Source of the DNA: the human T2T-CHM13v2.0 reference genome, Homo sapiens
DNA: 64,000 bases
Reading direction: 5' to 3' (one strand)
NCBI RefSeq assembly: GCF_009914755.1
Contig: NC_060936.1
The notes under the pieces were generated by a model that made no database searches, was not told where the DNA came from, and saw only the letters and a program-made list of their open reading frames with translations. A program made the position numbers and the translations under genes. Positions 7,521 through 63,941 of this stretch are shown here, piece after piece (the first letter of the stretch is position 1; each line of letters begins with the position of its first letter).

Positions 7521-8029
7521 GAAATTATAATTAGTAATTAATGGACCCCGGTGTTTGCTTTTTAAACTACCATGTTTTAAACTGTGAGAAAGAATAATTT
7601 GCTTAAATAATTTTTAAGTTTGATGTAATCAACAGACACTACCTCCTAATAACGTATACTTCTGTATTATCAAGGCTATAAGTGACAAAAATCACTTGGA
7701 GCTACATAGAATGTTTATAACAGTGGCACAGGAGGTATCTCATGCAACTCAAGCCATAGAAATAGACTAGAAACAGAGTCTGAAGTGCAGAGCTTCGAAT
7801 AGAAAGAAAGACACAAATAATTAAAAGCACAGAGTAGAAAATTGTTGCTAACAAATTACATTTTATTACCACTCAGAGACGAGATATGAATTCTTTCTGA
7901 CCTACTTTTTGGAAACTCTGGCAAAAAGAGTCAAGGTGATATTGGCAGGGCTGGTATCTGTGAGATGAGATTTGTGATAGAAGATGCAGATATGTCAGGG
8001 AAGACCTCAGAGCAGAGAAAATTTTACAA

Positions 8030-8076
8030 CCATTTCCAAGATTTACTTTACATCCATTTCCAAGATTTACTTTACA
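8030..8076. repeat. 24-bp-period tandem duplication ccatttccaagatttactttaca x2
   Basis: Identical copies at 8030-8052 and 8054-8076. Confidence 0.9.
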
Positions 8077-8334
8077 AAGATTCTTGCCAGACCCTTATGG
8101 AAGTCCTGGCCCCGCAAGAACCTGCACATTTGCAGGGGAGAGTGTTGCCTCCCTAGGACATCATGGAAGCACATCAGAAATAGGTCAAGAGCAACTGAAA
8201 GGGCCAGAAGCACAGCTGAGGGCAAGTGTTATGGAACAGGATATAAACAGAACATAATATGACTGTGGACATAAACAGCAGATGAAGTGGGAACAAAATT
8301 GTCTCAAATCCTTTTAATTTTTTATGTCTTTCTT

Positions 8335-8800
8335 TTTATCAATTTGTTCAATGGGCATTTACTGAACATATACTATGTGCTGCACACTATTCTAGATGCT
8401 ATGGATACAGCAAAATATAGAATGAAATTCTTGGCCTTCATGGAAATTACATCTTTGGGGGGAGACTTACAATAAACAAAGAAGTAAATAGATAAATTGC
8501 CAGATATCATTAAGTACTTATTGGCAAAAATGGCTGAGGGAGGGAGCATTTGCTCCTGTATCCTATAGTCTGTCCAGGGAAGGACTCTCTAATACAATGC
8601 CAACTGAGAACAAACCTAAGGGTAGTGAGAGAGCACCTTACATTATATCTGGCATAGGAAGCATGAAAACAGCAAGTGCAAAGGCCCCATAGGAGAAGTA
8701 TGCCTGGGGTGTACTAACTTTAGCAATGAGGCCAATGTGGCTAGAGTCAAGGAGGGGAAGGGTGGTGGGAGGAGGATCCAATAGGATCACTGGAAGCCAG
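8335..8800 (-). mobile_element. L2 LINE 3' fragment
   Basis: ttcaa..catttactgaacatatactatgtgc...gatacagc...gccttcatgga...gtgcaaaggccc...gaggccaatgtggctagagt, typical antisense L2 3' end. Confidence 0.7.
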
Positions 8801-9088
8801 TGAGCAAAAATAAAACCGCACATATCCTATTTATTCTGGTATTATGTAGGCAACCCCTATGTTGAAATATCATTTGGAAAGAAGATAAAAAGGATGGAAT
8901 GGCAGGAAAATTTTGATTGAGCAGTTAACAATAAAGATTAAATTTCCAAAAAGATGTTGCTCTGAATAACATTGAATTGGCTAGATTATGACTATCTAGT
9001 AAATACGGCCTATAGCAGAGACCAAATTACTTAGGAAGAAATTCTATAAAGGTTTGCAGGATATATATATACACATATATATAAAAAC
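8636..9088. repeat. Direct repeat copy 1 (~450 bp); copy 2 at 9451-9894
   Basis: Colinear by eye. I counted 24 mismatches in the 180 bp from 8881 to 9060, and the first half is somewhat more diverged. Confidence 0.93.
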
Positions 9089-9443
9089 TGTATTACTCCA
9101 TTTTCATGCTGCTAATAAAGACATCCAAAGACTGGGTAATTTATACAGGAAAGAGATTTAATGGACTCACAGTTCCACATGGCTGGGGAGGCCTCACAAT
9201 AATGGCAGAGACAAGGAGGAGCAAGTCACGTCTTAAATGGATGGCAGCAGGCAAAAAGAGAGATCGTGCAAGGAAACTCCCCTTTATAAAACCATCAGAT
9301 CTTGTGAGACTTATTCACTATCAAGAGAACAGCACAGGAAAGACCCACCCCCATGATTCAATTACCTCCTACAACCCATGGGAATTAAGGGAGCTACAAT
9401 TCAAGATGAGATTTGGGTGGGGATACAGAGCCAAACCATATCA
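9089..9443 (-). mobile_element. THE1B (MaLR) LTR
   Basis: tgtattactccattttcatgctgct...caaggaggagcaagtcac...gagatttgggtggggatacagagccaaaccatatca, with TG...CA ends. Confidence 0.92.
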
Positions 9444-9450
9444 TTCTGCC

Positions 9451-9894
9451 ACTTACATGTATACCTGGCATAGGAAGTATGAAAAGAGCAAATCCAAAAG
9501 TCCCATAGGAGAAATATGCCTAGAGTGTACAAACATTAGCAATGAGTCCATTATGGCTAGAGTGAAGGAGGGGAAGAGTGGAAGGAGGAAAGGTCTAATA
9601 GGGTCATTGGAGGCCAGTGAGCAGAAATAAAACTGCACGTATTGTATATATCCTGGTATTATGTAGACCACCCTTATATCCAAATATCATTTGGAAAGAA
9701 GATAAAAAGGACGAAATGGCAGGAAAATATTGATTGAGCAGTTAGCAATGAAGATTAAGCTTCCAAAAAGATGTAGCTCTGAATAACATTGAATTGGCTA
9801 TATTATGATTATCTAGTAAATAGGGCCCATAGAATAGATTGAATTAATTAGGAAGGAATATTGAAAATGTTTGCAGGTTTTTAAATATGTAAAC
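9451..9894. repeat. Direct repeat copy 2 of 8636-9088
   Basis: cttacat.tata.ctggcataggaag through gtttgcagg...aaac. Confidence 0.93.
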
Positions 9895-10981
9895 TAAAAT
9901 GTTTACACTGAAAACCAATGTGAATCATCAAATAATGAAAAAGTAATATCAATTTGTAGAGCTTTATGAGAGAAAACATTATATTTCACAGGCAATGATT
10001 AGAATCTAATATATTCATTTATTTTTTGAACTGCCATCAATAGAGATTAAAGGCTAATCATCCTTAAGGCACTTTGGCAATCTAAAGAAAAAAATTACTT
10101 AAATAAGACAAACTTTAAGACAATGAAAACATTGAATAACCTAACTATGGACTGTTTAATGAGAGAGATTAGAAACAGGTTTTTTTAAAAAGTTACTAAA
10201 AAGCTTTGGCAAAAATACGTGTCATAGAAATATGACATAAAAGAATATCTAGGCAAAAATATTTAAATAGCAAAGGGTTTTATAGGAGCATTTTAAACAA
10301 ACAATTTTGTATAGTTAACCAGATAAATTTCTACAAGTGCTAATTTGCATCTTGTAAATAGTAAGGAGATTCTTTATTTAACTTTTACCATTATTTTATG
10401 TGTTGGTTTTATTTTCTAAAAATGTCTAAGCTTGATTTAGTTGGGTCTTTACTGAGTGACAGGGAGCAGAATTTTCATCTATGCCAAGGGATGCCTAATT
10501 CCTCACTATGTAAACAGAAGAATAACAGATAAGTAAATAGTTTTTCAGAAACAAACAAGTAGTATTTGCACTTGTCATTGTGACTTGAAATTTAGAATAC
10601 TCGTTTAGGACACTAATCCTTTTTCTAGCTTTTTATAGAATGCTACTAATAAAATAATATCCATTGGTTAATCTCATGTAAAATTTACTTTTTCTTGCAC
10701 ACTGTTCTGAGTCACATAATATAATGGGTTTTATTTGGTCATGAGGAGGCAGGGCTAATCCATTTTTATAATGGAATAATAAACAAGGAATTTATGTTTG
10801 GGTAGCAGCAGTATTTTTATATATGGATGATTGATGCAGTTAGTAGTTTGTGGTGGTAGTTGATTAGTAATTTCTCTCTCGTCTTTTTCCCCCAGAAATT
10901 AAAACAATCTCTTGTATGCTTAGGGAGTTAAAAAATTTGCAAAGGTATTTAGAGTGAATTTATTGATGGACAAAGATTATC

Positions 10982-27641: not shown

Positions 27642-27765
27642 CCATGTTTCAGATACGCATACTAACACAGTCACTGCTCCTGCCAGTGAATCAAGACCAG
27701 TAGATTCATCGAGAACTCTAGCACACCAGACAAGAGCTGTGTCAGGATGTTACTCTAGTGTCAGC
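27642..27765 (-). ncRNA. SNORA3B: H/ACA snoRNA retrocopy, SNORA3B (SNORA45/ACA3-2) family, probably a pseudogene
   Basis: Minus strand gctgacactagagtaacatcctgacacagctcttgtctggtgtgctagagttctcgatgaatctactggtcttgattcactgg...gaaACAtgg matches SNORA3B as I recall it. The ACA box is 3 nt from the end and the H box is degenerate. It lies 107 nt upstream of the RPL27A last exon, and RPL27A is the known host. The symbol names the parent gene. Confidence 0.85.
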
Positions 27766-63626: not shown

Positions 63627-63941
63627 CATATTAGTTCATTCTCATACTGCTATGAAGAAATACCCAAGACTGTGTAATTCATAAAGGACAAAGGTTTAAT
63701 TGACTTACAGTTCAGCATGGCTGGAGAGGCCTCAGGAAACTTACAATCATGGTGGAAGGCACCTCTTTACAAGGCAGCAAGAGAGAGAATGGGAGCAGAG
63801 CAAAGGGAAAAAAGCCCCTTATAAAAGCATCAACCCCATGATTCAATCAACTTTCACTGGGTCCCCTCCCACAACACATGGGGATTATGGGAACTACAAA
63901 TCAAGATGAGATTTGGGTGGGGACACAGCCAAACCATATCA
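63627..63941 (-). mobile_element. THE1C/D (MaLR) LTR with an internal deletion of about 50 bp
   Basis: tattagttcattctcatactgctatgaagaaataccc...gatttgggtggggacacagccaaaccatatca. The cagatctcgtgaga...aacagc block is missing. Confidence 0.88.

What the first reader, a model, noticed from the sequence alone, without database searches (positions are those of the whole stretch)
8636..9894. THE1B LTR with a PPT remnant and a ~450-bp target duplication instead of a 5-bp TSD
Seen: copy 1 (8636-9088) ends exactly at the LTR edge. The other edge is followed by ttctgcc (9444-9450) and then copy 2 (9451-9894). There is no 5-bp TSD (aaaac versus ttctg). Copy identity is about 87% in the part I counted. Established: ggcagaa is the end of the THE1 polypurine tract next to the LTR, and retroviral DNAs with one defective end can integrate with one clean junction plus a large host duplication. 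Inference: this is a fossil one-ended integration caused by incomplete PPT removal, later reduced to a solo LTR. The copy divergence is compatible with THE1 age.
Basis: partly seen in the sequence, partly recalled or inferred. Interest (0 to 1): 0.72.

Follow-up and report, generated by a model that had tools for sequence, protein, structure and literature searches.

The report
Old LTR with 455-base host duplication

Summary
A 355-base THE1-type MaLR LTR (9089-9443, minus strand) lies between two direct copies of host DNA: about 8633-9088 and about 9451-9915. The copies are 85% identical and occur nowhere else in the genome. The U5 edge is the family's normal end and abuts host DNA directly. 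The U3 edge carries 7 extra bases (9444-9450). These read exactly as the bases before the 3' LTR in 10 of 29 full-length relatives. That junction recurs 1761 times genome-wide, against 0 for the reversed control. There is no 5-base target duplication. Of 71 other LTRs, 45 keep at least 4 of 5 such bases and none has a long flanking repeat. Copy divergence (K2P 0.168) falls in the upper quartile of 24 THE1 LTR pairs. The best reading is a one-ended integration: integrase joined U5 and host repair joined the unprocessed U3 end, duplicating about 455 bases. This matches published experiments and published HML-2 loci, so it is a new, much older member of a known kind. Three things are not shown: that faulty primer removal was the cause (only 4-5 stub bases are unambiguous), that a provirus later became a solo LTR, and the THE1B subfamily. 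The decisive outgroup comparison could not be run.

The parts
8633..9088 (.). Host copy 1 of the duplicated segment. The start is uncertain, 8633-8636. The last 28 bases (9061-9088) are an AT-rich simple tail.
   Evidence: unique in the genome apart from copy 2; no masked repeat of 100 bases or more inside it except the tail from 9055
9089..9443 (-). Solo LTR of a THE1-type ERVL-MaLR element, 355 bases, with both canonical ends. The U5 end at 9089 abuts host copy 1 directly.
   Evidence: 8715 first-look candidates genome-wide
9444..9450 (-). 7-base stub of element sequence upstream of U3 (the end of the internal region next to a 3' LTR). 9448-9450 may instead be, or overlap with, host copy 2 (short homology at the joint).
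   Evidence: 10 of 29 identical; last four bases identical in 15 of 29; 1761 genomic matches to stub plus LTR start at up to 1 mismatch; reversed control 0
9451..9915 (.). Host copy 2 of the duplicated segment. The start is uncertain, 9448-9451, and the end is uncertain, 9908-9915.

Best explanation
This is a fossil of a one-ended (aberrant) retroviral-type integration of a THE1 MaLR DNA in the simian germline. Shown: the U5 end stops at the family's normal terminal CA and is flush with host DNA, the mark of an integrase-made joint. The U3 end kept 4-7 bases that lie upstream of the LTR inside the element, so it was not processed and joined by integrase. About 455 bases of unique host DNA stand on both sides instead of 5. 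Inferred: following the published model, the free viral 3' end annealed through a 2-3 base match to host DNA about 455 bases away. It was extended by a host polymerase and resolved by recombination on the side that yields a duplication. Inferred, less firmly: the U3 end was a poor integrase substrate because the plus-strand primer tract was cut or removed a few bases off. Not decidable: whether a full element was inserted and later collapsed to a solo LTR by LTR-LTR recombination, or whether only an LTR-length DNA went in.
For: Anatomy. Host segment unique in the genome: (4 matches: itself, copy 2, and two short ones of 79 and 35 bases). Stub is the element's own sequence next to the 3' LTR: 3 of 29 close LTR relatives carry internal sequence ending this way; 10 of 29 junctions are identical over 7 bases and 15 of 29 over the last 4; 1761 genomic matches to the 21-base junction against 0 for the reversed control. 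Normal copies differ: of 71 other LTRs, 33 have a 5/5 and 12 a 4/5 target duplication, and 0 have a long flank-to-flank repeat (2 have chance 18-21 base hits). No other local repeat of 100 bases or more exists in 64 kb. No internal THE1 sequence lies anywhere in the window, so there is no displaced remainder. Age: copy K2P is 0.168 (transversions 0.056) with differences spread evenly (chi-square p 0.54). 24 THE1 LTR pairs span 0.086-0.220 with median 0.145. Half the copy distance (0.084) compares with LTR star-branch estimates of 0.049-0.092. Print: with one bad viral end, integrase inserts the good end and host enzymes insert the other. Host DNA is most commonly duplicated over hundreds to thousands of bases, and there is usually a short homology at the aberrant joint (PMC5041404, passages and Discussion read). 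Primer-tract letters are found at viral DNA ends when RNase H errs (PMC5618025, passages).
Against: No outgroup genome could be examined, so the single-copy empty site is inferred. Only 4 stub bases (9444-9447) are certainly neither LTR nor host. A random 4-mer would match 1 time in 256, and the next 3 bases may be host. The copies are on the old side: only 5 of 24 LTR pairs reach K2P 0.168 and only 2 of 24 reach its transversion level. Two close sibling elements have LTR pairs at 0.106 and 0.113. The window LTR's star branch (0.071-0.074) is shorter than most panel members (longer than 6 of 44). So the duplication could be somewhat older than the LTR. The exact right end of the duplication is blurred by an AT-rich tail.
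Confidence: 0.66

Rival explanations
1. Integrase-independent capture. A THE1 DNA fragment (stub plus LTR) was caught by end joining or template switching at the junction of a tandem duplication formed by host repair, with neither end joined by integrase.
For: The U3 side is clearly a host-made joint with possible 2-3 base homology. Print notes that host polymerases can append viral or foreign pieces at such joints.
Against: The other side stops exactly at the canonical terminal CA with no extra base, as in the 45 of 71 copies with a recognisable target duplication. A random fragment end would fall there about 1 time in several hundred. The fragment would also have to begin within 7 bases of the LTR start.
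Confidence: 0.12
2. Ordinary integration with a 5-base duplication into single-copy DNA, followed by a later rearrangement. An example is a non-homologous exchange between an allele with the element and an empty allele. This replaced the internal part and the 5' LTR with a second copy of the host segment.
For: Both host copies end in the same five bases (9084-9088 and 9911-9915), as a former 5-base duplication would.
Against: It needs a break exactly 7 bases from the LTR in an element of about 2.3 kb, a partner break in an allele lacking the element, and a polymorphic state at the time. The shared five bases are equally expected under a large target duplication. No remnant of internal sequence is present in 64 kb.
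Confidence: 0.08
3. A tandem duplication of the host segment existed first. The element then landed exactly on its junction and lost its 5-base duplication, internal part and 5' LTR by deletion.
For: The copies are at the old end of the THE1 LTR-pair range and slightly more diverged than the LTR-based estimates.
Against: It needs an insertion exactly at the junction of the only such repeat in 64 kb, plus a deletion that ends exactly where copy 2 begins. The age difference is within error (0.084 +/- 0.010 vs 0.071-0.074 +/- about 0.014).
Confidence: 0.07

Closest known systems
Experimental aberrant (one-ended) integrations of avian and HIV-1 vectors (PMC5041404 and the work it cites; passages and Discussion read)
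   Same: One normal viral-host junction. The other end is irregular, sometimes with extra or missing viral bases. A short homology is usual at the irregular joint. Host DNA is duplicated over hundreds to thousands of bases instead of 4-6.
   Different: Those are fresh events in cultured cells with engineered or drug-inhibited systems. This is a fixed germline event tens of millions of years old, in a non-autonomous MaLR, and is seen today as a single LTR.
[quoted passage not shown]
   Same: Endogenous retroviral LTRs or proviruses with long flanking host duplications in place of the short one, with the same explanation offered.
   Different: A different class and age: young betaretrovirus-like loci versus an old ERVL-MaLR. 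A retained stub of primer-tract sequence is not mentioned in the passages I read.
Ordinary THE1 solo LTRs
   Same: Same LTR family, same termini and similar length: 355 bases against a median of 367-368.
   Different: Ordinary copies have a 5-base duplication (45 of 71 still at 4/5 or better) and no long flanking repeat (0 of 71).
Primer-tract or tRNA letters at the ends of unintegrated retroviral DNA (circle-junction studies; PMC5618025, passages read)
   Same: Extra bases from the plus-strand primer tract on the U3 end of viral DNA.
   Different: Those are seen in unintegrated circles. Here the end is joined to the chromosome, and only 2-5 bases beyond the expected terminal dinucleotide are involved.

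Membership tests
THE1-group ERVL-MaLR LTR | Dispersed high-copy LTR of about 350-370 bases with TG...CA ends | tested here: met
8715 first-look candidates and 40 scored. The ends are shared with 29 fetched copies. Relatives have a median length of 367-368 and the window LTR is 355.
THE1-group ERVL-MaLR LTR | 5-base target duplication at ordinary insertions | tested here: met
   Met for the family: 33 of 71 perfect and 12 of 71 at 4/5. Not met at this locus (0/5), which is the anomaly under study.
THE1-group ERVL-MaLR LTR | Full-length relatives carry an internal region of about 1.6 kb that ends in a purine-rich tract next to the 3' LTR | tested here: met
   24 clean LTR pairs are spaced 1493-1800 bases apart. 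The purine-rich end is seen in 29 junctions.
THE1-group ERVL-MaLR LTR | Likeness to a copy that print names THE1B (the LTR upstream of CRH) | tested here: met
   It is the only LTR match in 10 kb upstream of and across CRH (L108): 79.6% over 373 columns, E 1.7e-88; K2P 0.198.
THE1B subfamily specifically | Closer to THE1B than to THE1A, C, D or MSTA | tested here: inconclusive
   No named LTR library is on hand. The CRH copy is no closer to the window's nearest relatives (mean K2P 0.188-0.209) than they are to each other (0.155-0.166). The window LTR shows no deletion of 8 bases or more shared with relatives. Its only large gap is private: 0 of 44 and 1 of 29 share it. So the large deletions that print gives as separating THE1A from THE1B (PMC10735291) are not seen. 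B versus C or D is unresolved.
One-ended (aberrant) retroviral integration | One junction canonical: processed CA end flush with host DNA | tested here: met
One-ended (aberrant) retroviral integration | The other junction is irregular, with extra or missing viral bases and often a short homology | tested here: met
   A 4-7 base stub of element sequence, with a 2-3 base possible overlap with host copy 2.
One-ended (aberrant) retroviral integration | A large duplication (or deletion) of host DNA in place of the short target duplication | tested here: met
   A duplication of about 455 bases of unique DNA.
One-ended (aberrant) retroviral integration | The empty site holds one copy of the segment, and the duplication and insert arose together | not testable with these tools
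   No primate genomes are on hand. Dating is compatible but loose.

The most novel reading that the evidence does not exclude
This would be among the oldest recognisable fossils of a one-ended integrase event, at roughly 40-55 million years. It would show that non-autonomous MaLR DNAs suffered the same plus-strand-primer and end-processing errors seen in laboratory retroviruses. It would also show that such errors left fixed tandem duplications of host DNA in the primate germline. A small genome-wide class of LTRs with a primer-tract stub and long flanking duplications may then exist unnoticed, because repeat annotation records only the LTR.
Probability: 0.5. Interest if true: 0.55.

Novelty: new member of a known kind. 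Interest (0 to 1): 0.42.

Why it matters
The locus links a mechanism worked out in cell culture to a fixed event in primate evolution. That mechanism is integrase inserting one viral end while host repair inserts the other and duplicates nearby DNA. The locus extends the few published endogenous examples (young HML-2 loci) to an old MaLR. It shows that LTR insertion could create host tandem duplications of several hundred bases. It also gives a simple sequence signature (exact U5 end, stub at U3, long direct repeat) for counting such events in genomes. No function for the host is implied. The locus lies in an intron of an uncharacterised lncRNA.

Tried and rejected
Dispersed-repeat origin of the flanking copies: rejected, because the segment occurs only here.

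L1-type insertion: rejected on reading the sequence. There is no poly(A) at either edge, and the LTR is complete to its terminal CA.

Unequal exchange between two neighbouring elements: rejected. No LTR stands outside the two copies, and the only other LTR-like match in the window is at 63629-63941.

Plus-strand strong-stop DNA as the insert: rejected, because no primer-binding-site bases follow U5.

Star-branch dating without a consensus gave estimates that depend on the panel: 0.049 with a panel chosen by likeness to the window LTR (biased low), then 0.071-0.074, then 0.092. It also overstates age for siblings whose LTR-pair halves are 0.053-0.056 but whose branches are 0.103-0.116. I therefore rely on the LTR-pair distribution. 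Of 39 candidate full-length places, 15 gave no clean pair and were dropped (0, 1 or 3 LTR hits of 300 bases or more).

Subfamily naming with the CRH-upstream copy was inconclusive. I did not fetch further named copies (CSF1R, IL2RB), because their positions within those genes were not known to me.

Searches for a MaLR or THE1 case in print found only the HML-2 paper and unrelated papers. The terms were 'endogenous retrovirus' + 'target site duplication' + 'aberrant integration' (5 papers) and 'solo LTR' + 'aberrant integration' (3 papers). This is a narrow search of an open-access library, not proof of absence.

The primary avian-vector paper (PMC1317513) is not held. Supplementary tables were not seen and may bear on typical stub and duplication sizes. 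These include the list of aberrant proviruses in PMC5041404 and the insertion lists of PMC10735291.

A recount gives 31 of 39.

Full report
WHAT IS THERE.

Reading 8300-10300 and searching for repeats confirms the layout. Two direct copies of one segment flank a 355-base LTR that lies on the minus strand at 9089-9443.

- The repeat finder gives 8644-8773 vs 9460-9589 (85%) and 8777-9060 vs 9594-9877 (86%).
- MAFFT extends the homology leftwards to 8633-8636 and 9448-9451.
- It extends rightwards through an AT-rich tail. The five bases that close copy 1 (9084-9088) recur at 9911-9915.
- The duplicated unit is about 455 bases.
- In the core, 429 aligned sites carry 40 transitions and 24 transversions (p 0.149, K2P 0.168), with 3 one-base gaps and only 3 CpG-type differences.
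- The differences are spread evenly along the copies (chi-square p 0.54).

THE FLANKING SEGMENT IS HOST DNA, NOT A REPEAT FAMILY.

- A whole-genome search with copy 1 returns four matches: itself, copy 2 (85%, E 5.8e-131) and two short ones of 79 and 35 bases.
- The public mask lists nothing of 100 bases or more inside the copies except the simple tail from 9055.
- This is the only local direct repeat of 100 bases or more within 3 kb in the whole 64-kb window.

THE LTR AND ITS ENDS.

- The LTR plus the 7 bases beyond it gave 8715 first-look candidates, of which 40 were scored.
- Of the 39 other scored matches, 31 begin exactly at the base after the stub.
- Three begin at the first stub base, one at the sixth and one at the seventh. 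Three begin 1 to 5 bases inside the LTR.
- In 29 fetched copies the same first and last bases recur.
- I projected the window's LTR ends onto 71 other copies. These came from 73 loci, after dropping two duplicates of the same place; 72 of the 73, the window among them, held a near-full LTR.
- Of those 71, 33 have a perfect 5/5 target duplication, 12 have 4/5, 13 have 3/5 and 13 have fewer. Several of the lower scorers are LTRs of full-length elements.
- The window has 0/5.
- None of the 71 has a long flank-to-flank repeat. Two have chance hits of 18-21 bases. The window has a 426-column alignment at 85%.
- So both LTR edges here are the family's true termini, and the flanks are abnormal.

THE 7-BASE STUB.

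On the element's sense strand, 9444-9450 lies just upstream of U3.

- Three of the 29 close relatives (L004, L013, L022) carry internal sequence there. It ends in a purine-rich run matching the stub at 6, 7 and 5 of 7 bases.
- I searched with the last 201 internal bases plus the first 60 LTR bases of L013. This gave 2907 first-look candidates, 40 scored matches and 30 saved loci.
- In 29 of those 30 loci the LTR match began within 3 bases of the LTR start. One locus was dropped, and the set includes L013 itself.
- The 7 bases before the LTR are identical to the window's stub in 10 of the 29. No other 7-mer occurs more than 6 times. The last four bases are identical in 15 of 29.
- The 21-base junction as it stands in the window (stub plus first 14 LTR bases) occurs 1761 times in the genome at up to one mismatch. 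The reversed control gives 0. Only the first 100 places are listed, and all of them are exact.

Two cautions apply.

- First, 9448-9449 also match copy 1 (8633-8634). Only 9444-9447 is certainly neither LTR nor host. The overlap may be the short homology that host-made joints usually show.
- Second, by analogy with other retroviruses, unprocessed DNA ends carry a terminal dinucleotide outside the integrated TG...CA. The two bases next to the LTR would then be the normal unprocessed end. Only 2-5 bases would come from the primer tract proper. This step is an inference.

NOTHING ELSE OF THE ELEMENT IS NEARBY.

- A sibling's internal region finds nothing in the 64 kb.
- The only other LTR-like match is a remote one at 63629-63941, 68% identical.

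AGE.

Print places THE1A-D, MSTA and MSTB in simians only. They are absent from tarsier, mouse lemur and bushbaby, and MaLR replication ran until about 45 million years ago (PMC10735291, passages).

- The copies differ by K2P 0.168, that is 0.084 +/- about 0.010 per copy.
- With recalled neutral rates of 1.5-2.2 x 10^-9 per site per year, this is roughly 38-56 million years. The rates come from no call.
- For a like-for-like yardstick I measured 5'/3' LTR pairs of full-length THE1 relatives, which were also identical when formed.
- Two close siblings give 0.106 and 0.113.
- Of 39 further candidates, 24 gave clean pairs. K2P ranges 0.086-0.220 with median 0.145, and transversions have median 0.041.
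- The host copies are equalled or exceeded by 5 of 24 pairs in K2P and by 2 of 24 in transversions. Their divergence is within THE1 range, on the old side.
- I built no consensus. A least-squares star branch from pairwise distances puts the window LTR at 0.049 with a panel biased towards it. It gives 0.071-0.074 with a panel chosen by likeness to two other copies (45 LTRs from 46 loci), and 0.092 with a third panel.
- Transversion branches are 0.022-0.035, against 0.028 for half the copy distance.
- These figures are compatible with one event. They are too loose to exclude a duplication somewhat older than the LTR.
- The star branch clearly overstates age for siblings with known LTR pairs.

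NAME.

- The tools carry no repeat names.
- I anchored the name through print. A THE1B element upstream of CRH is described in PMC10204343 (passages).
- The 10 kb that I fetched, covering most of the annotated CRH gene and about 640 bases beyond its upstream end, holds one LTR match, 79.6% identical to the window LTR.
- That supports the THE1 group. The subfamily is not resolved.
- The window LTR is 355 bases against a median of 367-368 in relatives. The difference is due to one private larger gap and two single-base gaps.
- The larger deletions that print gives as separating THE1A from THE1B are not seen.

HOW IT MOST LIKELY AROSE.

Published work on viral DNAs with one end that integrase cannot use reports the following (PMC5041404).

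- The good end is inserted normally.
- The free 3' end of the other is extended by a host polymerase on nearby host template after a short match.
- Recombination then closes the joint.
- Depending on the side, the flank is deleted or, most commonly, duplicated over hundreds to thousands of bases.

The locus has each element of that picture.

- The U5 joint is exact.
- The U3 end is unprocessed and carries extra element bases.
- A 2-3 base match is possible at the joint.
- A direct duplication of about 455 bases flanks the insert.

Extra primer-tract bases at U3 ends are a known product of imprecise RNase H cuts (PMC5618025). This gives a reason why this end was a poor substrate. The present sequence does not prove that this was the cause. 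It also cannot show whether a full element went in and later became a solo LTR.

RIVALS.

- Capture of an element fragment at a host-made tandem duplication, without integrase. This fails to explain the exact U5 terminus.
- A normal insertion later rearranged against an empty allele. This needs a break 7 bases from the LTR and a polymorphic state.
- A pre-existing tandem duplication hit exactly at its junction and then trimmed exactly. This needs two coincidences, though the slightly older look of the copies is in its favour.

KNOWN OR NEW.

- Long direct repeats (250, 61 and 450 bases) around human-specific HML-2 loci have been ascribed in print to inefficient integration, with the same laboratory parallel (PMC4422153, passages).
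- The kind is therefore known. This is an older example from another class, with a retained stub.
- My two searches for a MaLR case found none, but they cover only an open-access library.

WHAT COULD NOT BE DONE.

- No primate genome is available here, so the decisive empty-site test was not run.
- No named repeat library is available.
- Supplementary tables were closed.

Noticed in passing
window 27642-27765 (-): The annotated pseudogene LOC124900326 matches the H/ACA snoRNA family SNORA3/SNORA45 over the whole model (58 bits, gathering score 51, E 1.5e-8). It was the only Rfam match in the window.
   Followed up: partly
window 63629-63941 (-): A second, remote LTR-like stretch, 68% identical to the THE1-type LTR over 360 columns (E 1e-24). 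It is probably an older MaLR LTR.
   Followed up: no
window 8023-8070: Two head-to-tail copies of a 24-base unit, 96% identical, about 570 bases upstream of host copy 1.
   Followed up: no
window 7799-7827 and 8311-8339: An inverted repeat of 29 bases, 90% complementary, with arms 483 bases apart. It could be the ends of a small old DNA transposon or chance in AT-rich DNA.
   Followed up: no
window 9055-9374 vs 9089-9443: The public mask lists only 9055-9374 here (simple tail plus most of the LTR). The remaining 69 LTR bases up to 9443 are not listed, because pieces under 100 bases are omitted. The flanking duplication is invisible in that annotation.
   Followed up: yes
loci L013/L062 (C23) and L022/L029 (C4); L109-L147: LTR pairs of full-length THE1 relatives range widely (K2P 0.086-0.220, n=24, plus 0.106 and 0.113). 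They are much less diverged than star-branch estimates for the same LTRs would suggest. This hints at LTR homogenisation or at source heterogeneity within the family.
   Followed up: partly
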